From positions 776,413-840,412 of the forward strand of contig JACKFO010000002.1 of the NCBI GenBank assembly GCA_020632415.1: 64,000 bases of DNA, read 5' to 3'. The notes beneath the pieces are model-generated. The model searched no databases. It saw nothing but the letters and a program-made list of their open reading frames with translations, and was not told the origin of the DNA. Source of the DNA: Candidatus Nomurabacteria bacterium. GTDB taxonomy: Bacteria; Patescibacteriota; Patescibacteriia; UBA1558; GWA2-36-10. A program made the position numbers and the translations under genes. Position 1 is the stretch's first letter; every line of letters starts with the position of its first letter. Positions 2,172 to 48,927 of this stretch are shown in pieces.

Positions 2172-3977
2172 TTAAGCAACTAATTTTTCAAATTCTTCTT
2201 TTTCAATTGTCTCTTTTTCAACTAAGGTTTTAACAATCATTTCCATTTGTTCGCGGTGTTCAGTAATTACTTTTTCAGCGGTTTGAGAAGCCTTTTGAAT
2301 GTATTCAGAAATTTCTTGATCGATTTCTTCGGCGGTTTTTTCACTATAATCACGACGCTCGTGTATTTCTTTTCCTAAAAAGACCATTTCTTCTTTTTTG
2401 CCAAAAGTTCTAAAGCCTAATTTTTTATTCATGCCAAATTGAGTGATTAGACTTCTGGCAATAGCCGTGGCTCTTTCTAAGTCGTTACTAGCTCCAGTGG
2501 TTACTTCCTTGAAAAATATTTGTTCAGCCATTCGTCCGCCGAGTAGTACGGCCATGTCATCGATAAAATCAGAATAGCTAGTCATTTTTTTATCCTCACT
2601 TGGTAAATTGATTGTGTAGCCAGCAGCTCTTCCTCTAGAGATGATGGAGATTTTATGAACCGGATCAGCGTGTTCTAAGTAGTGAGCGACTATTGCATGA
2701 CCAGCTTCGTGGTATGCAGTAACTTTTTTTTCTTTTTCAGATAAAACATGACTTTTTCTTTCTGGTCCAAGCATCACTTTTTCGATGGAATCTAAAACAG
2801 TATTTTGGCTGATGACTTTTTCATTTTTTCGGGCAGTAGTAATCGCTGCTTCATTTAAAACATTAGCTAGATCAGCTCCAGAAAATCCTGGTGTTCTTTG
2901 GGCGACCATCTTTAAGTTGGAATCTTTGCCAAGTGGTTTGCCTTTAGCATGGATCGTTAATATTTCTTCACGATCTTTGATATCTGGCATGTCAATCACC
3001 ACTTGTCGATCAAAACGACCTGGACGAAGTAAGGCTGGGTCCAAAACATCAGGACGATTAGTAGCAGCTAGGACAATAATATTAGTTTGGTTATCAAAAC
3101 CATCCATCTCGGTTAAGATTTGGTTTAAGGTTTGCTCTCTTTCGTCATGTGAGCCACCAAGTCCAGAGCCACGTTGGCGACCAACAGCGTCAATCTCATC
3201 AATAAAGATAATACAAGGGGCGGCTTTTTTAGCTTTTTTAAATAAATCACGAACACGACTTGCGCCGACTCCGACAAACATCTCTACAAACTCAGAACCA
3301 GAGATGTGGAAGAAGGGAACTTTTGCCTCCCCAGCAACTGCTCGGGAGAGCAAGGTTTTTCCGGTTCCTGGGCTACCCAGTAACAAAACTCCTTTAGGAA
3401 TTTTTGCACCGAGGGCAATAAATTTTTGAGGACTCTTTAAGAATTCAACTATTTCTTCTAAGCCTTCTTTAGCTTCTTTAGCGCCGGCAACATCTTTGAA
3501 AGTTACTTTTACTTTTTGATCAGCAAGTTTTGCGCCACTTTGTCCAAAAGTCATTGCTCGGTTGTTGACGCCCTGCACTTGACGCATCATGAACCAAATG
3601 ATTCCCAAAATAAATAAACCAGGAATTATAAATGGTAAAATAGTTGAAAACATGATTCCAGAATTTGGTTCTTCTCCAACTTTGATGTCGATCTGACTAA
3701 TTTTTTCAGCAGGAACACTATAGCTATTTAAAAGCGTGATTAGTGATTCACCGTTTTCTTTTTTACTTAAATATTCTTTGCCATCTTGCAGGGTGATGTT
3801 TAATTCATCGCCATTGATTTGGATGGTCTTTACTTGTTGGTTTTCAATTTCTTGAACCAATTGACCTAAATTCATTTCTTCTGGTTGATCAAATTGGTTG
3901 CTATAAAAACTAAAAATTGCAGCAATTATCGCAAAGACTAGAAAGAATATTGCGAAATTTTTAAAAATATTTTTCAT
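2172..3977 (-). CDS. ftsH: ATP-dependent zinc metalloprotease FtsH
   Basis: N-terminal TM helices, AAA+ Walker A GSPGTGKT, second region of homology, zinc-binding HEAGHA motif. Confidence 0.95.
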
Positions 3978-12008: not shown

Positions 12009-13070
12009 TTAATTGAAGTAAAAGTGAACTGTATCGCCGTCTTGCATTAAATACTCTTTGCCTTCCATTCGCATTAGTCCTTTTTCTTTGGCCTGATGCC
12101 AACCGCCAGCATTTAAGAGTTCTTCCCAATTGACTACTTCCGCTCGAATAAAGCCTTTTTCAAAGTCAGTGTGAATCACTCCGGCTGCTTGCGGCGCTTT
12201 TGAACCATTAGTCACGGTCCAGGCCTTTGTTTCTTCTGGGCCAGTTGTAATAAAAGTAATCAGCTCTAATAGTTGATAACTTTTGTTGATCAAATTATTT
12301 AGTCCGCTATTTTTTATTCCAAGTTCTGCCAAAAAAGTTTGTGCTTCCTCATTGTTTAGTTCTGCTAACTCAGATTCTAGTTTTGCGCAGATGCTCAAAG
12401 CATTTTCTGGTAATTTTAAATCTTTATCCAAGTCATTTTCCGCAATGTTATACAAATAAATGATCGGCTTGATGCTCAGTAAATTTAATTGTTTTAATTG
12501 TTTACGCTCTTCTTCGCTCCAATCAAAAGTTGATAGTAATTTTTCTTCTTCTAGAATTTTTTTTGCTTTTTCGGAAACAGCTTTTTCTTGGTCAAGTTCT
12601 TTTGGATAAGAACCTTTCATTTTGCTAGTTACTTTTTCTAGATGTTTTGTTGTAGTTTCTAGATCGGCTAAAATTAATTCTAAGTTGATTACTTGTTTGT
12701 CATCTTCAGGGTCGATTTTTCCATTAACATGAATAACATCTTTATTTTCAAAATGTCTGACTACTTGGACAATAGCATCTACCTCTCGAATGTGAGATAA
12801 AAATTTGTTTCCTAAACCTTCGCCGGTAGAAGCGCCTCTGACTAGACCGGCGATATCGACAAACTCAATAGTTGTCGGGACTATTTTAGCGGAGCTAGAA
12901 AGTTGCGCTAATTTTTCTAAGCGTTGATCTGGAACAGCTACTACTCCAACATTTGGATCGATTGTACAAAAAGGATAGTTGGCCGCTTCGACTTTATTTT
13001 TTGTTAGGGCTTGGAATAGCGTAGATTTACCAACATTTGGCAAACCGACAATTCCTAAAGAAAATGACAT
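12009..13070 (-). CDS. ychF: Ribosome-binding ATPase YchF (Obg-family GTPase)
   Basis: G1 motif GIVGLPNVGKSTLF, G-domain plus C-terminal TGS domain (HTDFEKGFIRAEV). Confidence 0.92.
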   Translation of the reverse strand: MSFSLGIVGLPNVGKSTLFQALTKNKVEAANYPFCTIDPNVGVVAVPDQRLEKLAQLSSSAKIVPTTIEFVDIAGLVRGASTGEGLGNKFLSHIREVDAIVQVVRHFENKDVIHVNGKIDPEDDKQVINLELILADLETTTKHLEKVTSKMKGSYPKELDQEKAVSEKAKKILEEEKLLSTFDWSEEERKQLKQLNLLSIKPIIYLYNIAENDLDKDLKLPENALSICAKLESELAELNNEEAQTFLAELGIKNSGLNNLINKSYQLLELITFITTGPEETKAWTVTNGSKAPQAAGVIHTDFEKGFIRAEVVNWEELLNAGGWHQAKEKGLMRMEGKEYLMQDGDTVHFYFN

Positions 13071-13229: not shown

Positions 13230-13478
13230 TTAGTTTGCTAGTTTTTGGAGGTTTTTTCTGATTTTCCTCCATTGTTTTGGAAAAATGAATTTCAGAAGAA
13301 AAAACGAGTAAAGAGTGAGCAGTACAAGCGTAAGAGGTATCAGTATGGTGTATTTTACAAACAAGATCATTAGATCATCATCAGGCCAGAAGAGGAGAAT
13401 GTTTAGTAAGATGATTGTTAGTAGTAATTTTTTCTTAGGAATGATTCGCCAGTACCAAAACCATATGAGGTTTTTCAT
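13230..13478 (-). CDS. Small hydrophobic membrane protein, hypothetical
   Basis: 82-aa AT-rich ORF with two predicted TM helices; no other support. Confidence 0.3.
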   Translation of the reverse strand: MKNLIWFWYWRIIPKKKLLLTIILLNILLFWPDDDLMILFVKYTILIPLTLVLLTLYSFFLLKFIFPKQWRKIRKNLQKLAN

Positions 13479-13572
13479 TTTTTGTTCCTCCTGCTTGTGA
13501 ACAATTTACCATTAAAGTATAGCTTTAATTTTTTAATTAGCCAAGATCAAAACTTTGGGTTATAATGTTTTT

Positions 13573-15624
13573 ATGTCAAAAATAGATTTTCAAAAAGAAT
13601 TGAATTCTGAACAATATAGAGCAGTCACTGCTCCTGATGGACCACATTTAATTTTGGCTGGTGCAGGGTCTGGTAAGACTCGTACTTTAGTTTATCGAGT
13701 GGCCTATTTAATCGAGCAGGGCGTAAAACCAGAGAAGATTTTGCTTTTAACTTTTACCAACAAAGCAGCTAATGAAATGATGTCTCGGGTAGCGGAACTT
13801 TTGCATTGGCAGGACAAAAATAAATTACCAATTTGGGGCGGAACTTTTCATAGTATTGCTAATCGTCTTTTAAGATTTTATGGCGCTAAGATTGGAATTC
13901 AAAATAATTTTAATATTTTAGACGAAGATGACGCCAAATCGCTTTTAAAAAATATTATCTCTGAGTTTTTTGGTCATTTAGCTGCCAATCGTCGACCTAA
14001 TGCTAGTCTAGCTAAAGAGCTAATTAGCTTTTCAATTAATTCACGGATTAGCTTAGCCGAAGCTTTGGAAATCAAATTTTCTGAGTGGCAAAATTTTTTG
14101 GAGTTATTTGAAAAAGTAGCAGCAGAGTATCAAAAAAGAAAAAAATTATCCAATGTTTTGGATTTTGATGATCTTTTGCTCTATTGGAAAATCTTAACTG
14201 AAGATTCTGAAATGCAAAAAATATTTGACCAGAAATGGCAGTATGTTTTGGTTGATGAATATCAGGATACAAATACTTTGCAGGCGGAAATTATATTTAA
14301 TTTAAGTAAAAACCATCAAAATATTTTGGTGGTCGGCGATGATGCGCAGAGCATCTATTCTTTTCGAGCAGCAAATATTCAAAATATTTTGGATTTTCCA
14401 AAGGTTTTTCCTCGGGCTACAGTTTATAAACTAGAGACCAACTATCGTTCGACCCCAGAGATCTTAGCTTTGGCCAATGAAATCATCGCCTTAAATACTA
14501 ACCAGTTTGCTAAAAATTTACAGGCAATTTTGACAAGTTATGTGAAACCAGAGTTAATTGCTTTGGAAAATAATTTACGAGAAGCAAAGTGGATTGCTGA
14601 TCGGATCGAGGCTTTGATTGCCGAAGGAGTTCCAGCAATAGAGATCGTTGTCTTATTTAGAGCTTCTCATCATTCACAAAGTTTAGAAATGGAATTAAAT
14701 CGTCGAGGGATTGCTTATCAAATGCGTGGCGGTTTAAGATTTTTTGATCGAGCACACATCAAAGATATTTTGGCTTGGCTAAAAGTTTTGACCAACACTA
14801 AAGATGAAGTGGCTTGGGCGAGAATTTTAAATTTATATCCTGGGATTGGCCCTGCTACTGCTCAAAAAATATACGCTCAGGTTTCTGGTTTAGAAAGTTT
14901 AGAAAATATTGATCAAGTAGCTTTTAATCTAGGAAGTAAAGCTCAAACTTCTTGGCAACAAATTTCTCAGGTCATGACTAGTCTCTTCCGTCAGCAAAAA
15001 GCTAATCCAGCAGAGCTGATTAGAATGCTGATCAAAGAGTATCAAGAATATTTGACAGCTCAATATCCAGATTATCGTCAACGAAGTGAAGATTTGGAGC
15101 AGTTAGCTATTTTTTCTTCGTCCTATCAGGACCTGAATGCTTTTTTGAGTGAGATAACTTTACAAGAAAAATTTAATGCCGACGATGGACATGACCAAGA
15201 GGCAATAATTTTAAGTACAATTCATCAAGCTAAGGGTCTGGAATGGCAAGCAGTTTTTTTGATGAATTTAACCAACAAATCTTTACCGCATCCTTTAGCT
15301 GTTTCTGAAACAGAGCAAGAAGAAGAAAGAAGATTGTTTTATGTGGCAGTCACTCGGGCTAAAAAACATTTGTATTTAACTTACCCAATGTCACAATTTT
15401 CTTATGATGGATACAAGAGTTTAACAGCTTCGCCATTTGTTTCCCAGTTGGCCACTACTTTTTTAAATTATAATCATTTGGCAAGATCTACAATGACTAC
15501 TGAAAGTGATGATACGGAATATTCTTTTGAAGACACAGCAGGGGATTTTTGGGAAGAAGACACAAAACATCCGCGTCAGAAAATAAAACCAGGAGATTTT
15601 TTACCAGATATTGAAGATTGGTAG
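13573..15624 (+). CDS. UvrD/PcrA-family ATP-dependent DNA helicase
   Basis: Motif I AGAGSGKT, DEYQDTN (motif II), helicase motifs III-VI, acidic C-terminal tail. The ATG at 13573 lies only about 7 nt after a TATAAT box (13561-13566), suggesting a leaderless transcript. Confidence 0.88.
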   Translation: MSKIDFQKELNSEQYRAVTAPDGPHLILAGAGSGKTRTLVYRVAYLIEQGVKPEKILLLTFTNKAANEMMSRVAELLHWQDKNKLPIWGGTFHSIANRLLRFYGAKIGIQNNFNILDEDDAKSLLKNIISEFFGHLAANRRPNASLAKELISFSINSRISLAEALEIKFSEWQNFLELFEKVAAEYQKRKKLSNVLDFDDLLLYWKILTEDSEMQKIFDQKWQYVLVDEYQDTNTLQAEIIFNLSKNHQNILVVGDDAQSIYSFRAANIQNILDFPKVFPRATVYKLETNYRSTPEILALANEIIALNTNQFAKNLQAILTSYVKPELIALENNLREAKWIADRIEALIAEGVPAIEIVVLFRASHHSQSLEMELNRRGIAYQMRGGLRFFDRAHIKDILAWLKVLTNTKDEVAWARILNLYPGIGPATAQKIYAQVSGLESLENIDQVAFNLGSKAQTSWQQISQVMTSLFRQQKANPAELIRMLIKEYQEYLTAQYPDYRQRSEDLEQLAIFSSSYQDLNAFLSEITLQEKFNADDGHDQEAIILSTIHQAKGLEWQAVFLMNLTNKSLPHPLAVSETEQEEERRLFYVAVTRAKKHLYLTYPMSQFSYDGYKSLTASPFVSQLATTFLNYNHLARSTMTTESDDTEYSFEDTAGDFWEEDTKHPRQKIKPGDFLPDIEDW

Positions 15625-35916: not shown

Positions 35917-37512
35917 TTACTGATTTTTTGAGTTTTTTAAGTTTCTGCGATGTGCCTGGCGATAATGTTTGATCCCGAATTTATGAGCTTGATTTCGCAT
36001 ATTTTGGATGAATAAAGATAGCTTTGAATTTTGATCAATTTGTAAAGATTGTTTTTTTCCAGGAATAAAGATCTCTTCTTCCCTTTTGGCCAAAGAAATA
36101 ACTTTTTTTTGCCAAGATTTTTTTAAACTAGGATAAACAGTGTTCAGCTGACCCTTGCCACCATCTAGAATGATCAAATCAGGACTTGGCCACTCAGGGT
36201 GTTTTTGTCGGCGCTCGAGAACCTGTTTTAAAGAAGCGAAATCATCTGGTCCTACTATATTTTTGATTTTAAAAATACGATACTGATCGGCTGCAATTTT
36301 ACCATCAATAAAAACAATCATTGAACCATAAGAAAAGTTTCCTTGAATATTAGAAATATCGTAGACTTCAATTCTCTTCGGTAAATTTTTTAGTTTTAAA
36401 GTTTTTTGTAGTTGGATTAAAATTTCTAGTTTAGAATTATTTAGATTTTTTTGTAAATAATCCTCGGTATTTAATTTAAGTAGCTCTAATAATTTTTTAT
36501 TTTTGCCTTTTTGCGGAACAATATTTTGAATTTGAGAATTTATTAAAATATTTTTTATATCAACTTTAATTGGTGAGATTATTTCTTTTGGCAAATCAGA
36601 GCTTTGACTATAAAATTGTTGCAAGGTGCTTTCTAAGATTTCTTTGATTTTTAGATCAAGTTTGTTGTCAACAATGAAATTAAATTTATCACCTACAGTT
36701 CCGCGTCTGACTTGCAGTAAGCTGATAATTACTTGTTTTTGGAAAATACTAAAATTAATTAAGTCCTGATTAATGTTTTTGGTACTAACAATTTTTTGTT
36801 TTTCTTGTAAACGTTTTAAAGCAAGTATTTGGTTCTTTTTTTTGGCAGCTAGCTCAAATTGTTTTGCCGCGCTAGCCTGAGAAATTTCAGCCAATAGTTT
36901 TTTTTCTAAATCTTTAGTTTCGCCTTTGATGATTTTAACTGCTTCTTTGATTAATTTTTGATATTGATTTTCAGAAATAAATTTTTCACAAGGCCCATCG
37001 CAAAGTCCTAAGTGATACTGTAGACAAACTTTTCCTTTGGGGACAGTTTTCAAATCTCGAAGGCAAGTTCTTAGTGGTAAAATTCGATGTAATAAACGGA
37101 CGATATTTTTGGCGGCCAGAGTAGAAGTGTAAGGGCCGAAATGTTGACCTTTTAGCTTTTCGCGACCATGACTGACAACGATTCGAGGAAAAGCCTGTTC
37201 TGTGATCACAATATAGCCCCAGTTTTTATCATCTTTTAAAACGATGTTGTATTTTGGTTGATGTTTTTTGATTTGCCCAGCTTCAAGTAGCAAGCTTTCT
37301 AATTCGCTATCAACAATCGTGTACTGAATCTTTGTGATTTCAGAGAGCATATTTTGTTTAGCCTCTGTTAGATCATTTACACGTAACCAATACGAATTAA
37401 CTCTTTTTTTGAGATTTTTGGCTTTGCCAATATAAATAATCTTCCCTGTTTTATTGAGGAAAAAATAAATACCTGGTTTTTCTGGGATATTTTTGATATT
37501 GTCAGGAGTCAT
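35917..37512 (-). CDS. uvrC: Excinuclease ABC subunit C
   Basis: N-terminal GIY-YIG domain (PGIYFFLNKTGKIIYIGKAKNLKKRV), UvrBC-interaction region, C-terminal RNase H-like endonuclease and HhH region. Confidence 0.9.
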   Translation of the reverse strand: MTPDNIKNIPEKPGIYFFLNKTGKIIYIGKAKNLKKRVNSYWLRVNDLTEAKQNMLSEITKIQYTIVDSELESLLLEAGQIKKHQPKYNIVLKDDKNWGYIVITEQAFPRIVVSHGREKLKGQHFGPYTSTLAAKNIVRLLHRILPLRTCLRDLKTVPKGKVCLQYHLGLCDGPCEKFISENQYQKLIKEAVKIIKGETKDLEKKLLAEISQASAAKQFELAAKKKNQILALKRLQEKQKIVSTKNINQDLINFSIFQKQVIISLLQVRRGTVGDKFNFIVDNKLDLKIKEILESTLQQFYSQSSDLPKEIISPIKVDIKNILINSQIQNIVPQKGKNKKLLELLKLNTEDYLQKNLNNSKLEILIQLQKTLKLKNLPKRIEVYDISNIQGNFSYGSMIVFIDGKIAADQYRIFKIKNIVGPDDFASLKQVLERRQKHPEWPSPDLIILDGGKGQLNTVYPSLKKSWQKKVISLAKREEEIFIPGKKQSLQIDQNSKLSLFIQNMRNQAHKFGIKHYRQAHRRNLKNSKNQ

Positions 37513-37537
37513 ATAAGTATTATAACGGAAATATAGA

Positions 37538-37566
37538 TTGACATAAATAGGGCAGAGTTTTAGACT
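37538..37566 (+). promoter_or_regulatory. Consensus sigma70 promoter TTGACA-17-TAGACT driving GC-rich islet B
   Basis: -35 TTGACA at 37538-37543, exact 17-nt spacer, -10 TAGACT at 37561-37566. Confidence 0.5.
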
Positions 37567-37616
37567 TATAAAGGTTAACGGTTCTTCAAATCAGAATCAA
37601 ATCATGGAGGCCTCAG

Positions 37617-37745
37617 GTGAAGATACTTGATTGCTTAGTTTTGATTGGCGTAGGCATTTGCCTCGGCTGTCGTTGGCTTTGGTTTCAAGCTAGGTCATTG
37701 CTTACCGGTCAGCCTTTTGACATGGAAGATGTCTGGGGCGACTAG
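37617..37745 (+). CDS. Candidate 42-aa hydrophobic peptide (GTG start; VKILDCLVLIGVGICLGCRWLWFQARSLLTGQPFDMEDVWGD)
   Basis: GGAGG SD 7 nt upstream of the GTG; GC-rich codons; not in the ORF track (too short, non-ATG start). Confidence 0.25.
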   Translation: MKILDCLVLIGVGICLGCRWLWFQARSLLTGQPFDMEDVWGD

Positions 37746-37761
37746 AAAGGAGGAGTCTGTC

Positions 37762-37899
37762 ATGTACGTTAGAGAAACATGGTCGGAAAAGTTAGTTGAT
37801 CGTTTGTGCTTGATCGCAATTCAATTGTTTTGTTACGCTCTGGTTTACGTCATTATTAAGCCCGCATCTTTCATAAGTACGCATAAGAGAAATTATTGA
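37762..37899 (+). CDS. Small single-TM protein (45 aa, MYVRETWSEKLVDRLCLIAIQLFCYALVYVIIKPASFISTHKRNY)
   Basis: Perfect AAAGGAGG SD 7 nt upstream of the ATG; hydrophobic core; basic tail. Confidence 0.4.
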   Translation: MYVRETWSEKLVDRLCLIAIQLFCYALVYVIIKPASFISTHKRNY

Positions 37900-37914
37900 A
37901 ACAGGAGGTGGCAG

Positions 37915-38121
37915 ATGAAATTGGTAGTGCAAAACATTTGTCCGCACTGTCGTAGATTTGTCTCGGGTGAGTATTGCCCGGGGGAAGTTCACAATTGTCC
38001 ATATGGAGACTGTGGACAGCAATTTTACGTGGTCTTTTTCGAAGATAACATCGCTTTCGTGATGCAGTACCCAGAAGATTTTCAGCGGTACGCACAGGAA
38101 TTTTTACCAGGAGTATTCTGA
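37915..38121 (+). CDS. Small zinc-ribbon protein (CPHC...CPYGDC), 68 aa
   Basis: AGGAGG SD 6 nt upstream; four Cys in a CxxC-x13-CxxxxC arrangement; GC-rich codon usage unlike the host. Confidence 0.45.
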   Translation: MKLVVQNICPHCRRFVSGEYCPGEVHNCPYGDCGQQFYVVFFEDNIAFVMQYPEDFQRYAQEFLPGVF

Positions 38122-38147
38122 TGAAAAGGAGGAATGACATCTGAGAT

Positions 38148-38180
38148 CCGTTAGGCGCCCTAGGGCCTAACGGATTTTTT
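38148..38180 (+). terminator. GC-rich intrinsic terminator closing islet B (ccgttaggc...gcctaacgg plus T7)
   Basis: 9-bp perfect stem followed by ATTTTTTT. Confidence 0.6.
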
Positions 38181-38244
38181 TATTAATTAAAAAACTTAAC
38201 TCTTGGTCTAGAGTTAAGTTTTATGTTTGTGGGTTCATATTTGT

Positions 38245-41200
38245 TTACAGACTATTTAGTGCTGCCCTAGTTTGTGGGCCAACATAACCTAGGGGAGAGA
38301 TTTTGTTGGCTTTTTGAAAAGCTTTAACCGCAGTTGCAGTAACTGGACCATAATAACCAGTGATACTTGGGTAAGTAAAATATCCTAGAGACTTTAGCTT
38401 AGTTTGTAAAGCTCGGACTTCTTCGCTAATGCTACCCAGACTTAAGAAATTTTTAAAAGTATAATTATTTGTATTTTGCGTCTGTTTTATATCTTGACCA
38501 GTCACATAAGTTTCACTATCAGGAATAATCTCGACATCTTGCCACCGATACCCCAAAGCAACAAAAGCCTCGCCATCGACAATCCATTGTTTTTGATTAT
38601 TTTTTAGAAGATAAACTTTAGGGTTGTTAGCGTATTTGATTAGTCTTTCGCTAGAAGCGTGATCAGTATTGTCTAATAAACTAGTCATTGTTATTTCTGC
38701 GCGATTGACATAAAGGTCTTCAAATTTAAGATTAACATCTTCAATACCATCTTGGTCTAGGTCAATGTTTTTACTTTCTTCCAAGCGAAGAGTAATGATT
38801 TGTCGTTGTGAGTTTAATTCAATAGTAATCAAATTGTGCAATAAATCAAGATCTATGATTTTAAATTTATGTTCTTGAGAGATTGGTCGATTATGATTAC
38901 TGATTTGTATTGCGAAATCTGCTGAAGAGTCAATATAACCCATGACGTTAGTCCCTCCAGAATCAATGTTGCCAAGGTTGGTATTTTGCCCCATATTAAT
39001 ATTGAGACTATTTTTGCCAATGCCAGTTGGGCCAGGAGAGACAACGCCACCTCCACCTCCATTTACATTTGAAGTGCAATCTCCAGTAGCAATAGTGACT
39101 GAATTCGCCCAAGCAGTTTCTGCGCTGTCACCATTGCGAGCTTTCACCCTAAAAGTATAACTAGTGCTACATGTTAAGCCTGTAAATTCTTTAGCGGTAT
39201 CTGTAACCCAACCAGAATTTGTGCTAGAAGTAATATTTTCTACATAATATTCTGTGCCGCTTGGGTTACTATTAGCGTCCCAAGAAGGAGTAATTGAAGT
39301 ATTTGTCTGACTACCGCTAGTTAGGTTAGCTGGAACATTAGCCAAAGTATATACTGTATCAGAAGTAGCTGAAGCAGAGCTTTCTCCTCTGGTATTATGG
39401 TAAGCATTAACACTAATGCTATAAGCAGTGTTTGGCGTTAAGCCAGTTGCTTGATAAGATTCACTATCCGCGTCTAAATCATCGATATCTGTGCCTTCAG
39501 CACTTTCGTAATCAATACGATAAGAATCTTCAAAATTAGCATTATCAGTCCAAGCCCAAGTAATAGCAGTAGAGGAATCAACTGTTGGTGTGCCAATCGT
39601 TGGCGCACCTGGAGTAGTGTCGATGGAAGCAGCGGCTTCGGAACCACTGGAGTTGCCAGCGGTATTTTGAGCAATTACTTTGTATTGATATCTTTCATTA
39701 GCAGCTGGTGGATTAGCAGCGTTATTAGCAGCATTATCTACAAAACTCGTTGCATCAGCTACTGCTGTGCCGATTTGAGCGTAAGCACTCCAGCCGGATC
39801 CAGTATCATCACGTCTTTGAATAATAAAGCCATCTTCATCAGCAGAATTATCTGTCCAAGTGACAGTGATCTGGATATCTGAATTGTACGTAGCAGTTAC
39901 TGAGCTAGCGTCAGCTGGCGTGTTGTTGATATTTATTTGCGGGTAATTAGTGTAAGTATCCAAAACAGTGCCATCGGATTCTGTCATGCGAAAACAATAA
40001 TTTGTTTGGTTGCTAAAATTATGTCCTTGCAAAACCCAATCCCATTCGGCGTCTTCGCCAACGGCAATGATGTTTGGATTAGCAACAGAATTATTTTCTT
40101 CTTCATAAGTGCCACCAACATCAGAGCCAGATAAAACAAGAGAGCTAATAGTAGCGTTATCAGCTACCGAAGCATTGTCATATCCTCGCCAAGGAGCAGT
40201 AGTAGAGGCCATTGCTCCAATATCTTGCCAATTGCTGACAGCAGAACAATCGCCGCCAGTACCGAACTGTAGTTTAAAAGTTTTACTTGCAGCGTCTAAT
40301 TGAGAGCCGCCAACTTGGACAGACATTCTTAAGCGCACAATATCTTCATCGCTTAATGTATCAACAGTGGTGATATTTGTATTTTCAGCTGCATAGGCTG
40401 TTGTGGGAGTGATGGCGTCAATATTTTCATACCAACGAAAAGAATTTTGTGTTAGCGTAGTTGGCACAATCCAACTCACAGTTCCCACAATTGCTTTGGC
40501 ATAGTTAGAATGAGTAACGTCTTTGTAGCCAATTAAAAAGTTGTTAGCATCAAGTACAGTAACAGAAGGGTATTGAATGTTGCCAGTATCAAAAGCAACA
40601 GCAGAATCAAGTAAAGTAATTTCATTGCCACTAATTGTTGCTATATTAGCATTAGCGATATTACTACTATTAGTCCAGACTAAGATCGCATGACTATCAT
40701 CAATAGCATCAACAGTATTGAAAGTAGAACCAGCAGCAGAAACCACTGCCTTGGTGCCAAAAGTTAAAGTTGAAGCGCCATCATAAGAACCTACTATTGC
40801 ATTGGAGATGCTAGAATTATCACCATCATTATAGACGACAATAAACTTACTACTATCTAAAGCAGCGGCATCCATATAGCCATAAGCTCGGCCACTTTCA
40901 AAAGTAGTTTCAGAAGTTGCCCAACTGATTGTTGTGCCAGAAACAGAGCCGACAATAGCATTGCCATTGTTAGTATCTCCAGTGTCTCTAAAAGTTACGA
41001 CAAAGTGAGCGCTATCTAAAACAGCTAAACCAATAGCATAAGTACCGCCAGAGTTAAAAGTGGCTTCTGTGCCCCAAGTGATTGTAGATGCTCCAACTGT
41101 ACCTACTCTAACTTTACCAACATTACCATTAGTGTTGTCAGCGTAGGCATAAACAACATGAGTAGAATCCAAAGTTTTCATTTTAATATATCTTGGCAAA

Positions 41201-41670
41201 ACAGAATTCATATTTTGGTCACCGGCCCAAGTGGTAGGATTAGCAGAAGTATTACCAATGTCTGTTACGGTATTTGGACCAATGGTTGAATTAAAACCAG
41301 CAACAACTTTGTTAGTAGACAGATATTCAATCTGTGCTTCGTCATTAGTAGAGGCCACAGTACTTCTAGAATTAGCGGTAATTGTAGAGCCATCGATACT
41401 TAAGACTTTGCTATATTTTTCATACATCATGATAGCATGAGTAGTGTCTATGGTATCTGTATCAACGTAGGAGATGTTTAGGGTGTCTACTTGAAATTCG
41501 CTGCCAAAGTTGGGGAAAGACAAAGTGTCGACATCAGCAGCTTTGACCCGAGTGTTTAAACTAAAAAAAACAATCATCAAGATTGTAAAAAAAGCAAAAA
41601 ATTTTATTTTTTCAGGATTTTTGTTTAAAAACATTTTTATATCAATAAGGAGTATTTTTGTATTCTTCAT
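38245..41670 (-). CDS. Giant secreted surface protein: signal/anchor, long Thr/Ser/Asn-rich beta region, three fibronectin type III domains, Gly-rich linker, one copy of the C-terminal repeat module shared with the 15690-19034 protein, and a C-terminal peptidoglycan-binding (PGBD-like) domain
   Basis: N-terminal hydrophobic segment; FN3-like W/Y/T periodicity (TVTWTDNSADEDGFII, YRIDYES, TEYYVENI); GGGGG run; C-terminal LQTKLKSLGYFTYPSITGYYGPVTATAVKAFQKANKISPLGYVGPQTRAAL matches the PG_binding_1 consensus. Confidence 0.75.
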   Translation of the reverse strand: MKNTKILLIDIKMFLNKNPEKIKFFAFFTILMIVFFSLNTRVKAADVDTLSFPNFGSEFQVDTLNISYVDTDTIDTTHAIMMYEKYSKVLSIDGSTITANSRSTVASTNDEAQIEYLSTNKVVAGFNSTIGPNTVTDIGNTSANPTTWAGDQNMNSVLPRYIKMKTLDSTHVVYAYADNTNGNVGKVRVGTVGASTITWGTEATFNSGGTYAIGLAVLDSAHFVVTFRDTGDTNNGNAIVGSVSGTTISWATSETTFESGRAYGYMDAAALDSSKFIVVYNDGDNSSISNAIVGSYDGASTLTFGTKAVVSAAGSTFNTVDAIDDSHAILVWTNSSNIANANIATISGNEITLLDSAVAFDTGNIQYPSVTVLDANNFLIGYKDVTHSNYAKAIVGTVSWIVPTTLTQNSFRWYENIDAITPTTAYAAENTNITTVDTLSDEDIVRLRMSVQVGGSQLDAASKTFKLQFGTGGDCSAVSNWQDIGAMASTTAPWRGYDNASVADNATISSLVLSGSDVGGTYEEENNSVANPNIIAVGEDAEWDWVLQGHNFSNQTNYCFRMTESDGTVLDTYTNYPQININNTPADASSVTATYNSDIQITVTWTDNSADEDGFIIQRRDDTGSGWSAYAQIGTAVADATSFVDNAANNAANPPAANERYQYKVIAQNTAGNSSGSEAAASIDTTPGAPTIGTPTVDSSTAITWAWTDNANFEDSYRIDYESAEGTDIDDLDADSESYQATGLTPNTAYSISVNAYHNTRGESSASATSDTVYTLANVPANLTSGSQTNTSITPSWDANSNPSGTEYYVENITSSTNSGWVTDTAKEFTGLTCSTSYTFRVKARNGDSAETAWANSVTIATGDCTSNVNGGGGGVVSPGPTGIGKNSLNINMGQNTNLGNIDSGGTNVMGYIDSSADFAIQISNHNRPISQEHKFKIIDLDLLHNLITIELNSQRQIITLRLEESKNIDLDQDGIEDVNLKFEDLYVNRAEITMTSLLDNTDHASSERLIKYANNPKVYLLKNNQKQWIVDGEAFVALGYRWQDVEIIPDSETYVTGQDIKQTQNTNNYTFKNFLSLGSISEEVRALQTKLKSLGYFTYPSITGYYGPVTATAVKAFQKANKISPLGYVGPQTRAALNSL

Positions 41671-41820
41671 TCTCTAATTAGTTTTATTTGACTACATTAT
41701 TATAACATGATTTCTTTTTTTCTAGTAATAGATTATGTTTTTTAGTCGTTTGCTTTATTTTTTGAAAAGTAGTAAGTTATTTTTGTTTTCTAAAGCATAA
41801 AAAACATTGAGGAGGAAGCA

Positions 41821-42090
41821 ATGTTGAAAGCTTTGCTCTTTATCAAAAAACACTGGCTAATAACTTTATTAGCTGTCTGGAGCTTGGTCTCCAAAATCAT
41901 CTTTGGGCATTTTTTTTGGGTCTTGTTCCTTTCTTGGCCAACCTGGGTCAAGTGGAGTGTGTTGGTTTGGTTGTTTGGAATTTTTTTGCTTTGCCTATTT
42001 ATGCATGGTTGCAAAACCGTCACCAAAAATTCATCAATCTCCAATTTCAATCAGGAGGACTTAACTCATGTGGGAACTCATCAGTGCTAA
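41821..42090 (+). CDS. Small two-TM membrane protein (89 aa), hypothetical
   Basis: GAGGAGG SD 6 nt upstream of the ATG; Trp/Leu-rich hydrophobic sequence. Confidence 0.4.
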   Translation: MLKALLFIKKHWLITLLAVWSLVSKIIFGHFFWVLFLSWPTWVKWSVLVWLFGIFLLCLFMHGCKTVTKNSSISNFNQEDLTHVGTHQC

Positions 42091-42217
42091 CTGGCAGATT
42101 GCTTCTGGCAGTCTTCTGATCATCATCCTGTTCATCTGGTACTCTGTGTGGAGAACCTCTGCTCCTGACCGTGAGCGACGAAAAAAGCATTTTGCCAAGA
42201 AGGCAAAGCATGGCTAG
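42068..42217 (+). CDS. Candidate 49-aa type-I-toxin-like peptide (MWELISANWQIASGSLLIIILFIWYSVWRTSAPDRERRKKHFAKKAKHG)
   Basis: AGGAGG SD 7 nt upstream; one TM helix followed by a strongly basic tail; GC-rich codons; followed by a strong terminator; absent from the ORF track (shorter than 60 aa). Confidence 0.3.
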   Translation: MWELISANWQIASGSLLIIILFIWYSVWRTSAPDRERRKKHFAKKAKHG

Positions 42218-42241
42218 TCGTCGCTACTCGAGCCTGATCAG

Positions 42242-42284
42242 GCCCCGTCAACTCCTCAGTGTGGAGCGGACGGGGCTTTTAATT
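42242..42284 (+). terminator. GC-rich intrinsic terminator closing islet C (gccccgtc...gacggggc plus T-run)
   Basis: 8-bp outer stem with a nested inner stem (ctcc/ggag), followed by TTTTAATTTT. Confidence 0.55.
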
Positions 42285-42384
42285 TTCTTGCTGATTTTAA
42301 AATTAAGAGCAGAGCTCTTTAGTTATTGACGCTTAGTGTTTTTCGTGTTATCCTTTACAGGATTTATTTATTTTTTACAAAACA

Positions 42385-45246
42385 ATGTCAAAAAATATCG
42401 TCATCAAAGGAGCGCGCGTTCATAATCTCAAAAATATCGATGTCAAAATTCCTCGTGATAAATTAGTGGTAATCACTGGACTTTCTGGCTCAGGAAAATC
42501 ATCACTTGCTTTTGATACTATCTACGCTGAAGGTCAGCGTCGTTATGTAGAATCACTGTCGGCATATGCTCGACAGTTTTTAGGTTTGATGGATAAACCA
42601 GACGTTGATCAAATCGAGGGTTTGAGCCCGGCTATTTCCATTGATCAAAAAACTTCTTCTCGAAATCCTCGCTCGACAGTGGGAACAGTGACAGAAGTGT
42701 ATGATTACTTGCGTTTGTTATATGCCAGAATTGGCAAACCGCATTGTCATCTTTGTGGCCAAGAAGTAGTCAAACAATCTTTGCAACAAATTGCTGAAAA
42801 AGTTTGGGGCTTACCAGCGGAAACTGATTTTGTGATTTTATCCGCAGTGATTAGAGATAAAAAAGGGGAACACAAAAAAGTTCTCGAGCACATGCAGCGA
42901 GCTGGTTATCGTCGCTTGCGTTTGGACGGTGAGTTAATGACTTTTGAAGATGCGCAAATTGTTGTTTTAGATAAACAAAAAAAACACACAATTGAAGTCG
43001 TGATTGATCGTTTACGAAAAGATGGCTCCAAAGAAACTAAATCTCGTTTATTGCAATCATTAGAAACAGCTTTAGATTTAGGAAATGGTTTTATTACAAT
43101 CAATATCCCTAAGACAGAAGAAAATTTATTTTTCAGCGAACATTTTACTTGTCCGGTGCATAGTGAAGTCAGTTTTCCAGAAATTGAAGCACGTAATTTC
43201 TCTTTTAATAGTCCGCACGGAGCTTGTCCTGATTGTACTGGTTTGGGTAATAAATTAATCGTTGATCCAGAATTGGTTATTCCAAATAAAAAACTATCTT
43301 TATCCGAAGGAGCAATTCGTCCTTGGTCAAGAACCGCTGCTAATCAGACTTGGTATTTTAGAATTTTAGAAGCAGTAGCTAAAAAGAATAAATTTTCAGT
43401 TAATGATCCAGTAGAAAAATTAACTCAAAAACAACTGGACATTATTTTTTATGGCACCGGTGATGAGCGCTACCAAATGGAAATGTCGGGAGATAAATTT
43501 AGTGGCGATTATAATACAAGTTTTGAAGGGGTAATTCCAAATCTGCAACGTCGTTATCGAGAGACTGACTCGGATTATATTCGTAGTGAAATTGAGCGCT
43601 ACATGCGGATCACTCCTTGTGAGACTTGCCAGGGAAAAAGATTAAAAAAAGAAGTTTTAAGCATCACTGTCGGCGAGCAAAATATTTCCGAAGTTGCCGG
43701 TTTAAACATTGTTGAAAGTAAGAAATTTTTTGTTGATTTAGAAAAGAAGTTGTCCGAACGAGAGTTGACGATCGTCAAGCAAGTTTTAAAAGAAATCAAA
43801 GAACGTTTAACTTTTTTAAATAACGTTGGTTTAAGCTATTTGACTTTAGACAGGTCAGCTAATACTTTGTCTGGCGGCGAAGCACAACGTATTCGTTTGG
43901 CTACGCAGATTGGCTCTTCTTTAATGGGTGTTTTGTATATCTTAGATGAGCCTTCGATTGGTTTACACCAAAAAGACAATGCAAAATTAATCGAAACTTT
44001 ACAAAATTTAAGAGATTTAGGAAACACAGTAATTGTCGTTGAACATGATGAAGAAACTATTTTGGCCGCTGACCATGTGATAGACATCGGACCGGGAGCA
44101 GGAAAGCATGGCGGAGAAGTGATTGCTGAAGGTACGCCACAATCAATTAAGAAAAATAAAAAGTCTATTACCGGGAAATATCTTTCTGGTACCTTGTCTA
44201 TTTCTAGTCCAAAAAAATATCGTCCTGGTAATGGTAAGACTTTGTCGATTATTGGGGCCTCGGCTTTTAATCTCAAAGAGATTGACGTTCATTTTCCTTT
44301 GGGTAAATTTATCAGCATCACTGGAGTTTCTGGATCTGGTAAGTCTACCTTGATGACAGAAATTTTAGCCAAAGCCTTGAAGCAACATTTTTATCGAGCC
44401 AAAGACAATCCTGCGCAACATAAAATGATCAAAGGTTTAGAGTATATTGATAAAGTAATTGATATTGATCAGTCGCCAATTGGTCGTACGCCTCGTTCTA
44501 ATCCTGCAACCTACACCGGAGTTTTCACTTATATTCGTGATTTATTTGCCGAATTGCCAGAAGCAAAAATCCGTGGTTATCGAGCTGGTCGCTTTAGTTT
44601 CAATGTTAAAGGTGGACGTTGTGAAGCTTGCCAAGGCGATGGTACGGTTAAGATTGAGATGAATTTTTTGCCAAATGTTTATGTGGAGTGTGAAGAATGT
44701 CATGGTAAACGCTACAATAATGAGGCCTTAGAAATTCACTACAAAGGCAAGGACATTGCCGAGGTTTTGCAGATGACCGTCGAAGAAGCGATGCACTTTT
44801 TTGCTAATATCCCAAATATTTATAATAAATTGAAAACTTTGTATGACGTTGGCTTGGGCTATATTCAGCTTGGTCAATCAGCAACAACACTTTCTGGTGG
44901 AGAAGCACAACGTATCAAATTAGCAACTGAGCTTGCTCGCAGGGCTTCTGGTAAGACCTTGTATATTTTGGATGAGCCGACAACTGGTTTGCATTTTGAT
45001 GATGTCAAAAGATTATTAGAAGTTTTACATCGCCTAGTAGATAAAGGAAACACGGTTTTAGTCATTGAACATAATCTTGATGTGATCAAGAGTTCTGACT
45101 GGGTGATTGATCTCGGTCCAGAAGGTGGAGACAAGGGTGGAAATTTAGTTGCTGTGGGCACACCAAAAGATGTCGCAAAAATTAAAACTAGTTTCACTGG
45201 GCAATATTTAGCCAAGATGTTTGCTGATCATAAAACTAAAAAATAA
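42385..45246 (+). CDS. uvrA: Excinuclease ABC subunit A
   Basis: Two ABC ATPase modules ([21 protein letters not shown]), ABC signatures LSGGEAQRI twice, zinc-finger Cys clusters. Confidence 0.95.
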
Positions 45247-48651: not shown

Positions 48652-48927
48652 ATGCAATTAAAACCACTAGGAGACAGAGCGGTGATCAAAGCTTTGCCAA
48701 AAGAAGAAACTACCAAGTCAGGAATTATTTTACCGGATAGTTTAAATAAAGATAACAAACAAGAAGGTGAAATTGTAGCTATTGGCAATGGTGAGAAAAT
48801 CGCTAAGTTAAATTTAAAACCAGGTCAAAAAGTTGTTTTTTCTGAATACGGCGGCAGCGAAGTCAAAATTGACGAGCAAGAATATAAAATTTTGAGTCAC
48901 GATGAGCTCTTGGCTGTTGTTGAATAA
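48652..48927 (+). CDS. groES: Co-chaperonin GroES
   Basis: 91 aa, LKPLGDRAVIK start and mobile loop; immediately upstream of groEL. Confidence 0.95.
   Translation: MQLKPLGDRAVIKALPKEETTKSGIILPDSLNKDNKQEGEIVAIGNGEKIAKLNLKPGQKVVFSEYGGSEVKIDEQEYKILSHDELLAVVE

What the first reader, a model, noticed from the sequence alone, without database searches (positions are those of the whole stretch)
37538..38180. Islet B: consensus promoter, three SD-perfect small ORFs (two hydrophobic peptides and a zinc ribbon) and a terminator, wedged between uvrC and the giant FN3 protein gene
TTGACA-17-TAGACT (37538-37566) is followed by three ORFs. The first is a GGAGG+GTG 42-aa hydrophobic peptide (37617-37745). 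The second is AAAGGAGG+ATG, a 45-aa single-TM protein (37762-37899). The third is AGGAGG+ATG, a 68-aa CxxC...CxxxxC zinc-ribbon protein (37915-38121). The unit closes with a 9-bp GC hairpin plus T7 (38148-38180). The whole unit sits on the plus strand between two minus-strand genes and is about 50% GC versus about 33% around it. This is a compact, self-contained, probably foreign operon; it could be a toxin/immunity or membrane-peptide module.
Basis: seen in the sequence. Interest (0 to 1): 0.65.

Follow-up and report, generated by a model that had tools for sequence, protein, structure and literature searches.

The report
Variable small-protein operon beside uvrC
The 640-base islet is a real three-gene operon in a Candidatus Nomurabacteria genome, encoding two tiny membrane peptides and a small zinc-binding protein; it is one version of a small-gene slot next to the DNA-repair gene uvrC whose content differs between related species, and its function is unknown.

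Summary
A TTGACA-17-TAGACT promoter, three tightly packed GGAGG-led ORFs (42, 45 and 68 aa) and a strong intrinsic terminator lie on the + strand between uvrC and the FN3/PG-binding gene. GC was overstated: 43.5% against 35.8% for the window, not about 50% against 33%.

The ORFs are coding, not a structured RNA.
- ORF3 has three orthologues, each at the same spot, divergent from uvrC.
- ORF1 has one clear orthologue, sharing the C-terminal tail ...PF-M--VWGD.
- Nucleotide similarity stops at the promoter, and Rfam finds nothing.
- ORF2 has no relative.

Across ten sister species whose contig covers the slot, it holds different mixes of unrelated small genes: two membrane-peptide families, two peptides with no relatives, and the zinc ribbon. 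Three species have no islet. The promoter is present wherever an islet is present and incomplete or absent where it is not.

Islet genes carry SD motifs and raised GC3, while the 41 long ORFs checked carry no GGAGG. No link to phage, plasmid, defence or toxin families was found.

"Self-contained operon" is supported. "Foreign" and "toxin/immunity" are not shown. This is a clade-restricted, fast-turnover microprotein locus, of moderate interest.

The parts
37519..37524 (-). uvrC -10 box (TATAAT on the - strand), 6 nt before the uvrC ATG. uvrC is probably leaderless. The box lies back to back with the islet promoter.
   Evidence: Sequence. ATTATA is invariant in the alignment of six species. Leaderless-type spacing.
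37538..37566 (+). Islet promoter: -35 TTGACA, 17-nt spacer, -10 TAGACT.
   Evidence: The block GAAATATAGATTGACATAAATAG...TAGNNT is conserved in window, L089, L003, L175, L177 and L004, and in L174 up to where its contig ends. It is reduced to the -35 in islet-less L005 and absent in islet-less L014 and L179.
37606..37610 (+). Shine-Dalgarno GGAGG of ORF1, 6 nt before the GTG.
37617..37745 (+). ORF1, 42 aa. Single-pass membrane peptide, here called family A: a hydrophobic N-terminal half and a conserved C-terminal part RWLW...QPFDMEDVWGD.
   Evidence: Hydropathy 2.0 over 19 residues. Orthologue at L175:828-995(-), 55 aa, ending RPFSMNEVWGD; tblastn E 4e-7, 16 identical columns. The tail motif occurs only in islet peptides: 3 of 4913 stop-to-stop segments.
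37746..37753 (+). Shine-Dalgarno AAAGGAGG of ORF2, 8 nt before the ATG.
37762..37899 (+). ORF2, 45 aa. Single-pass membrane peptide with a basic C-terminus. It has no relative anywhere.
   Evidence: Hydropathy 2.26. No homologue in clade loci or in the window. hhalign against family B found nothing. The exact sequence is not in the 15-billion-protein collection.
37904..37908 (+). Shine-Dalgarno GGAGG (within AGGAGGTG) of ORF3, 6 nt before the ATG.
37915..38121 (+). ORF3, 68 aa. Cytoplasmic 4-Cys zinc-ribbon-like protein, here called family Z. Invariant residues: C9 P10 C12 G23 C28 P29 F37 Y38 V39 D44 P53 E54 D55.
   Evidence: Orthologues are P0002 (L003), P0004 (L089) and L177:4687-4896(-), all directly upstream of uvrC and divergent from it. 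AlphaFold2 model: mean pLDDT 83.7, five strands plus a C-terminal helix.
38128..38137 (+). Fourth GGAGG, followed after only 2 nt by ATG and a 6-codon frame that runs into the terminator. Probably not a start; possibly the remnant of a lost cistron.
   Evidence: Read directly from the sequence. The spacing is too short for SD-led initiation (inference).
38143..38185 (+). Intrinsic terminator of the islet operon: hairpin plus T7.
   Evidence: I4, 11-bp perfect arms.
38191..38222 (-). Separate hairpin that serves as terminator of the convergent FN3/PG-binding gene. It marks the outer edge of the islet.
   Evidence: I2, 13-bp perfect arms.

Best explanation
Islet B is an autonomous, translated three-cistron operon in a Candidatus Nomurabacteria (Patescibacteria/CPR) chromosome.

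How it is expressed:
- A sigma-70-type promoter lies back to back with the probably leaderless uvrC promoter.
- It drives one mRNA that ends at a strong intrinsic terminator.
- Each cistron is started by a canonical Shine-Dalgarno site, although none of the 41 long ORFs checked in this window has one.

What it encodes:
- ORF1 and ORF2 are two single-pass membrane micropeptides.
- ORF1 probably sits N-in/C-out and displays a conserved acidic ...EDVWGD tail outside the cell.
- ORF2 probably has the opposite orientation.
- ORF3 is a cytoplasmic 68-aa zinc-ribbon protein with four Cys.

How it evolves: the operon is one allele of a clade-restricted slot upstream of uvrC. Unrelated small genes are gained, lost and recombined there under a conserved promoter: peptide families A and B, peptides with no relatives, and zinc-ribbon family Z.

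Shown: the anatomy, the coding status of ORF1 and ORF3, the mosaic turnover and the atypical composition.

Inferred: membrane topology, zinc binding, co-transcription, and that the products act as accessory envelope or membrane microproteins rather than in core metabolism.
For: Signals and packing:
- Promoter, SD sites and terminator are as described.
- None of 20,000 shuffles reproduces three SD-led ORFs.

Coding status:
- ORF3 against the L003 orthologue gives BLASTP E 5e-8.
- A profile search of 1.84 billion representative proteins found only three true family members: P0001, P0002 and P0004. A fourth was found by synteny in L177.
- All four sit immediately upstream of uvrC on the opposite strand.
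- ORF1 against the L175 55-aa ORF gives E 4e-7, with an identical VWGD C-terminus.
- blastn and nhmmer find no nucleotide similarity beyond the first ~35 nt, which is the promoter block.
- Rfam gives no hit. The fold z-score is only -1.7.

Mosaic slot:
- window: A + ORF2 + Z
- L175: A + B
- L003: B + Z
- L180: B
- L004: a 69-aa membrane ORF with no relatives
- L005, L014 and L179: no islet, only a 54-93-nt gap

Promoter and SD:
- The promoter co-occurs with the islet.
- SD-like motifs precede most islet genes in the other species too.
- The 41 long ORFs checked in the window have none. groES does have AGGAG, so SD recognition probably exists in this organism.

Products:
- Hydropathy of ORF1 and ORF2 is at least 2.0 over 19 residues.
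- The ORF3 model has pLDDT 83.7, with both Cys pairs at hairpin turns.
Against: - There is no expression data.
- ORF2 has no homologue at all. Neither ORF1 nor ORF2 is in the 15-billion-protein collection searched, so no gene call on record there has these exact products. On the identical contig L002 no gene is called in the islet at all.
- All within-species copies are 100% identical, so no dN/dS or population test was possible.
- GC3 is raised in the peptide genes of every species, and this is not explained. It could reflect a shared external source or an RNA-level constraint.
- Function is not established by any family, fold or context match.
- The 3' end of this genome's 16S rRNA was not available. 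The anti-SD motif was detected in only 48% of Parcubacteria (PMC9297842).
Confidence: 0.62

Rival explanations
1. Toxin/immunity module. ORF1 or ORF2 is a membrane-damaging or exported peptide (a type I-toxin-like peptide or a Sec-dependent bacteriocin). The other peptide and/or the zinc ribbon gives immunity or regulation. Arms-race turnover would explain the mosaic slot.
For: - The peptides are under 60 aa with a single hydrophobic stretch.
- ORF1's conserved part is the 24 residues after that stretch, as in a signal-anchored or cleaved peptide.
- Gene content is shuffled between sister species.
- Composition is atypical.
Against: - There is no PADLOC, PHROG, Pfam or NCBIfam match.
- No promoter-like site lies on the - strand inside the islet that could make an antisense RNA.
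- SD sites are strong and accessible and the layout is polycistronic, which is unlike type I toxins.
- ORF1's exposed part is anionic, whereas most bacteriocins are cationic.
- There is no double-glycine leader and no transporter nearby.
- Several species keep only the zinc ribbon or only one peptide, so no obligate pair is conserved.
Confidence: 0.14
2. DNA-damage-linked accessory module. The islet shares a bidirectional control region with uvrC, and a sister islet sits before uvrA. It is co-induced with nucleotide-excision repair. The zinc-ribbon protein would act on DNA, RNA polymerase or the Uvr proteins, and the peptides would be damage-induced membrane peptides, as TisB and DinQ are in E. 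coli.
For: - The promoters lie back to back, with about 13 nt between the uvrC -10 box and the islet -35 box, inside a conserved block of roughly 45 nt.
- A second small-ORF islet lies just upstream of uvrA, and L177 has another small zinc-ribbon ORF there.
- More distant relatives carry other Cys-rich ORFs between uvrA and uvrC.
- The Z profile has a marginal match to the KDM4A Tudor domain (E 8.5e-5). Tudor-like domains mediate RNA-polymerase contacts of Mfd and UvrD (own knowledge).
Against: - Adjacency is the only real evidence.
- No operator or LexA-type box was identified.
- Six sister species lack Z, and three of them have no islet at all, yet all keep uvrC.
- The model's best structural neighbours are LysW-type zinc ribbons (TM about 0.5), not Tudor domains (TM about 0.3).
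- No Pfam Tudor match was found.
Confidence: 0.1
3. Recent horizontal import, such as a phage moron or mobile cassette, from a higher-GC, SD-using donor. It would be unrelated to host biology.
For: - GC3 is 0.41-0.51 against a core maximum of 0.397.
- GGAGG SD sites occur in a window whose 41 checked long ORFs have none.
- Presence among relatives is patchy.
- In the window, ORF3 has GC3 0.45, while its orthologues have host-like GC3 of 0.27-0.33.
Against: - No match was found in 50,697 phage records, 72,556 plasmids or IMG/VR.
- There are no flanking repeats, integrase or attC-like sites.
- Families A and Z occur only in this clade and only at this locus.
- The promoter is conserved with the host's uvrC control region.
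- L005 keeps the -35 box, which looks like a deletion scar and implies loss rather than gain.
Confidence: 0.1
4. Not protein-coding: a structured or regulatory RNA, or chance ORFs in a GC-rich spacer.
For: - The region is GC-richer than its surroundings.
- No gene is called in the islet on the identical contig L002, and ORF1 and ORF2 are absent from the protein collection.
- ORF2 has no relative.
Against: - No Rfam family matches, even at E up to 10.
- The fold z-score is -1.7.
- There is no nucleotide conservation beyond the promoter, yet clear protein conservation for ORF1 and ORF3.
- SD-like motifs are conserved in front of most of the orthologues.
- 0 of 20,000 shuffles reproduce the arrangement.
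Confidence: 0.04

Closest known systems
LysW/ArgW amino-group carrier proteins (about 54-aa zinc-ribbon proteins with a C-terminal EDWGE tail)
   Same: - They are the best structural neighbours of the ORF3 model: 3wwn_B with TM 0.53/0.64 and rmsd 2.7 A over 50 columns, and a phage 'alpha-aminoadipate carrier' at TM 0.51.
- They share the size and the two-knuckle Cys layout.
- An acidic-Trp-Gly-acidic C-terminus, as in the LysW EDWGE motif (PMC10433800), is present in the islet. It sits on the membrane peptide ORF1 (EDVWGD), not on ORF3.
   Different: - No significant sequence match: NCBIfam 12.7 bits against a cut-off of 75.
- ORF3 ends ...EFLPGVF and has no EDWGE.
- No ATP-grasp (LysX) partner was seen next to it.
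- All Foldseek E-values are at least 0.16.
One-domain CPxCG-type zinc-finger/zinc-ribbon microproteins of prokaryotes (own knowledge, e.g. the haloarchaeal small zinc-finger proteins)
   Same: They are under 70 aa, form a single domain, and have CPxC plus CPxxxxCG knuckles. They are lineage-specific and mostly of unknown function.
   Different: There is no detectable homology. Only one family member gives weak Pfam zinc-ribbon hits, the best being Zn_ribbon_8 at E 0.028.
Type I toxin-antitoxin membrane peptides, including the SOS-induced TisB and DinQ (own knowledge)
   Same: They are 30-60-aa peptides with one hydrophobic helix. TisB and DinQ are genetically tied to the DNA-damage response, and here the peptides sit beside uvrC and uvrA.
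   Different: No antisense promoter or RNA was found. The islet has strong open SD sites, three cistrons in one operon, a conserved acidic tail, and no family match.
Class II (Sec-dependent) bacteriocin plus immunity-protein operons (own knowledge)
   Same: A small peptide with a hydrophobic N-terminus is followed by a small membrane protein in one operon. Content varies between close relatives.
   Different: The exposed part of the peptide is anionic. There is no double-glycine leader, no transporter or regulator, and no homology.
Integron cassette arrays (own knowledge)
   Same: One fixed promoter is followed by a variable series of short, promoterless, SD-led ORFs of unknown function.
   Different: Spacers are only 15-16 nt and hold no attC-like inverted repeats. 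No integrase is adjacent.
Small regulatory membrane proteins such as MgrB, AcrZ and MgtS (own knowledge)
   Same: They share the size and the single transmembrane helix. This is the most likely general mode of action: binding a larger membrane or envelope partner.
   Different: No homology was found and no partner has been identified.

Membership tests
Zinc ribbon (structural class) | Two Cys pairs (knuckles) at the turns of two beta-hairpins, conserved across the family | tested here: met
   C9, C12 and C28 are invariant. The fourth Cys (C33) is present in three of four members and shifted to CPC in P0002. In the AlphaFold2 model the knuckles fall between strands 1/2 and 3/4. Metal binding itself was not tested.
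Zinc ribbon (curated Pfam families) | A score above the gathering threshold of any Pfam zinc-ribbon model | tested here: not met
   ORF3 gives no Pfam hit at E up to 10. One other member gives Zn_ribbon_8 at E 0.028.
LysW/ArgW carrier | A C-terminal EDWGE motif ending in Glu on the zinc-ribbon protein | tested here: not met
   ORF3 ends EFLPGVF and its orthologues end differently again. Motif definition from PMC10433800.
LysW/ArgW carrier | NCBIfam NF041070 at or above its cut-off | tested here: not met
   12.7 bits against a cut-off of 75.
Tudor/SH3-like barrel | A significant sequence or fold match to Tudor domains | tested here: inconclusive
   The family Z profile matches KDM4A Tudor chains at E 8.5e-5 over 46 residues. 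Foldseek TM to Tudor, Cren7 and chromo folds is only about 0.3, and there is no Pfam Tudor hit.
Type I toxin-antitoxin | A cis- or trans-encoded antisense RNA with its own promoter overlapping the toxin mRNA | tested here: inconclusive
   The consensus scan found no - strand promoter-like site inside 37513-38244. A scan cannot exclude a weak promoter.
Type I toxin-antitoxin | The peptide is toxic when over-expressed | not testable with these tools
   This needs an experiment.
Known anti-phage defence or phage protein families | A match to PADLOC or PHROG profiles | tested here: not met
   No PADLOC hit. PHROG hits for ORF1-3 are all at E 0.2 or worse, and the best for any of the seven queries is E 0.008, on a neighbouring 193-aa ORF in L003.
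Integron cassette array | attC recombination sites between cassettes and an intI integrase | tested here: not met
   Spacers are 15-16 nt. No matching inverted repeats were found. The flanking genes are uvrC and the FN3 gene.
Described structured RNA (Rfam 15) | A covariance-model match | tested here: not met
   No hit at gathering score. The best E-value is 1.7, and that hit lies on the terminator hairpins.
Horizontally acquired phage or plasmid DNA | Similarity to phage, plasmid or viral-contig sequences, or mobile-element boundaries | tested here: not met
   Searches found no meaningful match (the only hit was at E 0.9). There are no flanking repeats. The compositional deviation is real but has no identified source.

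The most novel reading that the evidence does not exclude
The three small-ORF islets of this window lie beside uvrC, before uvrA, and at 13230-13478. Together they may represent an unrecognised class of Parcubacterial genes with these properties:
- They depend on Shine-Dalgarno initiation and are rich in GC3.
- They encode membrane micropeptides, here with a partner zinc-ribbon protein.
- They are translated by a different initiation mode from the SD-less, often leaderless, core genome.
- They are exchanged as cassettes under conserved promoters that are wired to the nucleotide-excision-repair genes.

On this reading the islet is a damage- or stress-switched surface and membrane programme of an episymbiont. 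The conserved ...DxW[GN]D-COOH tails would be a recognition motif for an unknown partner.
Probability: 0.1. Interest if true: 0.65.

Novelty: new member of a known kind. Interest (0 to 1): 0.4.

Why it matters
The islet adds three unannotated microprotein genes to a CPR genome, two of them founding families with no Pfam, NCBIfam, PHROG or PADLOC match at the thresholds used. On the identical contig L002 no gene is called in the 732-bp stretch.

Two points reach beyond this locus:

- Translation initiation. Islet genes use canonical SD sites, while the long ORFs checked around them have none and several look leaderless. This gives a concrete handle on how translation initiation is partitioned in Parcubacteria. 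The anti-SD motif is reported missing from many 16S rRNAs of that group (PMC9297842).
- Gene turnover. The same promoter drives different, unrelated small genes in sister species. This makes a clean natural example of gain and loss of microprotein genes at a fixed chromosomal slot.

No evidence makes it a new kind of system. Without expression or functional data it remains an accessory locus of unknown role.

Tried and rejected
- Structured RNA. Rfam at gathering and at E up to 10 gave nothing relevant. A single-sequence fold gave z -1.7. There is no nucleotide conservation on which to build an alignment. Rejected.
- Phage, plasmid or viral origin. blastn and tblastn against phages and plasmids, and a scan of IMG/VR with the family Z alignment, gave nothing.
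- Defence or toxin families. PADLOC, PHROGs, NCBIfam and Pfam gave nothing significant.
- Mobile-element boundaries. Only chance-level repeats were found.
- Homology between peptide families. ORF2 and the L004 69-aa ORF do not match family B, and family A does not match family B (hhalign).
- The L177 zinc-ribbon ORF upstream of uvrA is not a family Z member.
- Metagenome scan with a UvrC alignment.
- First contig look-up failed because I cut off the start codon of uvrC.
- Population test of coding. All same-species contigs are 100% identical across the islet.
- ORF2+ORF3 as one gene with a read-through TGA. Rejected: TGA ends 6 of 42 core ORFs, and a perfect SD plus ATG lies in the spacer.
Full report
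**1. What is in the sequence**

The 732-nt gap 37513-38244 is the longest gap between the long ORFs of the window and, apart from the terminal stretches, the GC-richest. It lies between two - strand genes.
- uvrC occupies 35917-37512 and carries the GIY-YIG and UvrC RNase H domains.
- The other neighbour is a 1141-aa fn3/PG_binding_1 surface protein gene at 38245-41670.

On the + strand the gap carries, in order:
- the promoter TTGACA-17-TAGACT at 37538-37566;
- GGAGG, 6 nt, then the GTG of a 42-aa ORF (37617-37745);
- a 16-nt spacer holding AAAGGAGG, then a 45-aa ORF (37762-37899);
- a 15-nt spacer holding AGGAGGTG, then a 68-aa ORF (37915-38121);
- a hairpin with an 11-bp perfect core, followed by T7 (38143-38185).

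A second hairpin (38191-38222) terminates the convergent FN3 gene.

Only the GC contrast was overstated: it is 43.5% against 35.8%.

The arrangement is not chance.
- None of 20,000 shuffles gave three SD-led ORFs of at least 40 aa.
- GGAGG is rare here: 49 on both strands of 64 kb, about the number expected from base composition.

**2. The organism and its translation signals**

The identical UvrC is on record as Candidatus Nomurabacteria (P0006, 842-kb contig). The relatives are Patescibacteria/Parcubacteria MAGs.

- None of the 41 long ORFs examined has a GGAGG before its start.
- Eight of 42 core ORFs, including uvrC, have a TAWAAT box 3-10 nt before the start codon and look leaderless.
- groES (48682-48927) has AGGAG, so SD recognition is probably retained.
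- A published survey found the anti-SD motif in only 48% of Parcubacterial 16S rRNAs (PMC9297842). The 16S rRNA of this genome was not available to me.

**3. Coding or RNA?**

Evidence against an RNA element:
- Rfam gives nothing, at gathering score or at E up to 10.
- The fold z-score is -1.7.
- blastn and nhmmer against sister loci find only the first ~35 nt, which is the promoter block.

Evidence for coding comes from the proteins, which are conserved.
- ORF3 matches a 67/71-aa ORF in L003 (BLASTP E 5e-8).
- A profile of the two, run against 1.84 billion representative proteins, recovered only themselves plus P0004 as true relatives. The two other hits are not family members: one is a 471-aa repeat protein matching only profile positions 20-45, the other a 5,584-aa protein at E 4.5e-4.
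- A fourth member was found by synteny in L177.
- The four share C9 P10 C12 G23 C28 P29 F37 Y38 V39 D44 P53 E54 D55.
- All four lie directly upstream of uvrC on the opposite strand.
- ORF1 matches a 55-aa ORF at the same place in L175 (tblastn E 4e-7), with RWL, PF-M and the terminal VWGD identical.
- ORF2 has no relative anywhere.

**4. A mosaic slot**

Ten sister species (UvrC 64-75% identical) have a contig that covers the slot. In an eleventh, L174, the contig ends inside the promoter. The slot holds different combinations.

| Locus | Content of the slot |
|---|---|
| L175 | A + B (a second membrane-peptide family) |
| L180 | B only |
| L004 | a 69-aa membrane ORF with no relatives |
| L005, L014, L179 | nothing; the FN3 gene runs to within 54-93 nt of uvrC |

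Sources for the table are. Families A and B, ORF2 and the L004 ORF are not detectably related to each other.

The promoter tracks the islet.
- The block GAAATATAGATTGACATAAATAG...TG(C/A)TAGNNT is nearly identical in five islet-bearing species: window, L089, L003, L175 and L177. The window itself has TTTTAGACT there, without the TG.
- It is recognisable in L004, and in L174 up to the point where that contig ends.
- L180 has its own TTGACA, further out.
- L005 keeps only the -35 box.
- L014 and L179 have neither element.

So the promoter belongs to the islet rather than to uvrC, and L005 looks like a deletion.

SD-like motifs precede most islet genes in the other species as well.

**5. Composition**

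- Core genes have GC3 of 0.28 +/- 0.037, with a maximum of 0.397.
- ORF1, ORF2 and ORF3 have 0.51, 0.41 and 0.45.
- The membrane-peptide genes are GC3-rich in every species (0.39-0.47 against 0.25-0.34 for uvrC). The Z genes are host-like (0.27-0.33) except in the window.
- Two other gaps of the window hold the same kind of gene. One is 41821-42090 plus 42068-42217, just before uvrA. The other is 13230-13478 on the - strand. All are SD-led, hydrophobic and GC3-rich.

I cannot explain the GC3 excess. A shared external gene pool, codon choice in hydrophobic peptides and mRNA-level constraints all remain open.

**6. The products**

- ORF1 and ORF2 each have one strongly hydrophobic stretch.
- By the positive-inside rule (inference), peptides of families A and B sit N-in/C-out and expose short acidic tails. 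ORF2 has the opposite orientation.
- The tail [DE]xW[GN]D-COOH occurs in 3 islet peptides and in none of the other 4,910 stop-to-stop segments of the clade loci.
- The ORF3 model (pLDDT 83.7) has five strands and a C-terminal helix, with the Cys pairs at hairpin turns.
- Its best structural neighbours are LysW-type zinc ribbons, at TM about 0.5 and E at least 0.16. NCBIfam gives LysW at E 0.1.
- The family profile also touches the KDM4A Tudor domain (E 8.5e-5). The fold match to Tudor-like barrels is poor (TM 0.3), so I treat this as marginal.
- The resemblance of ORF1's EDVWGD tail to the EDWGE motif of LysW (PMC10433800) is noted but is probably coincidental.

**7. Origin and function**

- No phage, plasmid, viral-contig, defence or toxin family matches.
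- There are no mobile-element boundaries.
- 'Foreign' is therefore unsupported beyond the compositional deviation. The families are confined to this clade and this locus.

The best-supported reading is an accessory operon for membrane and envelope microproteins at a fast-turnover slot. It is transcribed divergently from uvrC and translated through SD sites.

The rivals remain possible but have only circumstantial support. They are toxin/immunity, a DNA-damage-linked module and a recent import.

**8. Verdict**

The operon is real and previously unannotated, and its gene families are new. In kind it is ordinary: lineage-specific small-protein genes at a variable locus.

It is of moderate interest, mainly for two reasons: the contrast between SD-led islet genes and an SD-less core genome, and the clean example of cassette-like turnover under a conserved promoter.

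Noticed in passing
window 41671-42384: A second islet lies just upstream of uvrA (42385-45246). It has two overlapping SD-led (GAGGAGG / AGGAGG) hydrophobic ORFs: 41821-42090 (89 aa, multi-TM) and 42068-42217 (49 aa, one TM with a basic tail). Their GC3 is 0.51-0.58. A GC-rich hairpin with a T-run follows at about 42240-42285, then the uvrA promoter.
   Followed up: partly
window 13230-13478 (-): A third ORF of the same kind: 82 aa, hydrophobic, GGAGG 8 nt before the ATG, GC3 0.43. It lies in the 484-nt gap between the 353-aa ORF at 12009-13070 and the 689-aa ORF at 13555-15624 (neither was annotated here).
   Followed up: no
window, starts of the long ORFs examined (e.g. 37512, 21975, 2046, 19056): None of the 41 long ORFs examined has a GGAGG Shine-Dalgarno sequence. 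Eight of 42 core ORFs, including uvrC, have a TAWAAT box 3-10 nt before the start codon, which suggests leaderless mRNAs. groES (48682-48927) is an exception with AGGAG.
   Followed up: partly
L009:199-435, L013:742-1242, L076:5378-5611 (similar frames in L006, L007, L012): More distant relatives have uvrA and uvrC directly divergent. Between them, in DNA that is 5-14 GC points richer than the locus, they carry a different Cys-rich ORF family (...DPSQDxERR...CxCxCH...CCxxCxCG...). It has no Pfam match.
   Followed up: partly
L177:4396-4629: A 77-aa fragment resembling the PG_binding_1 C-terminus of the giant FN3 protein lies in a 1.2-kb stretch with no called gene between uvrA and uvrC. It is apparently a decayed remnant of that gene. 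A separate 65-aa CPWC...CRQCG zinc-ribbon ORF (3622-3819) sits before uvrA.
   Followed up: partly
window 38245-41670: The FN3/PG-binding surface protein is 1141 aa here and has no Peptidase_M14 hit. Its counterparts in L089, L179 and L180 are 1752-1854 aa with a Peptidase_M14 N-terminal part. In L003 the position is taken by a PKD-repeat/M23-like giant protein. This neighbour is itself highly variable.
   Followed up: no
window 38128-38137: A fourth GGAGG right after the ORF3 stop is followed after 2 nt by ATG and a 6-codon frame (MTSEIR) running into the terminator stem. The spacing is too short for a normal start. It may be a relic of a lost cistron.
   Followed up: no
L004:2110-2130 and L005:5960-5985 (uvrC upstream): In these two species the -35 region forms a palindrome, TTGAC-ATAAA-GTCAA. 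This could be an operator. It is not palindromic in the window.
   Followed up: no
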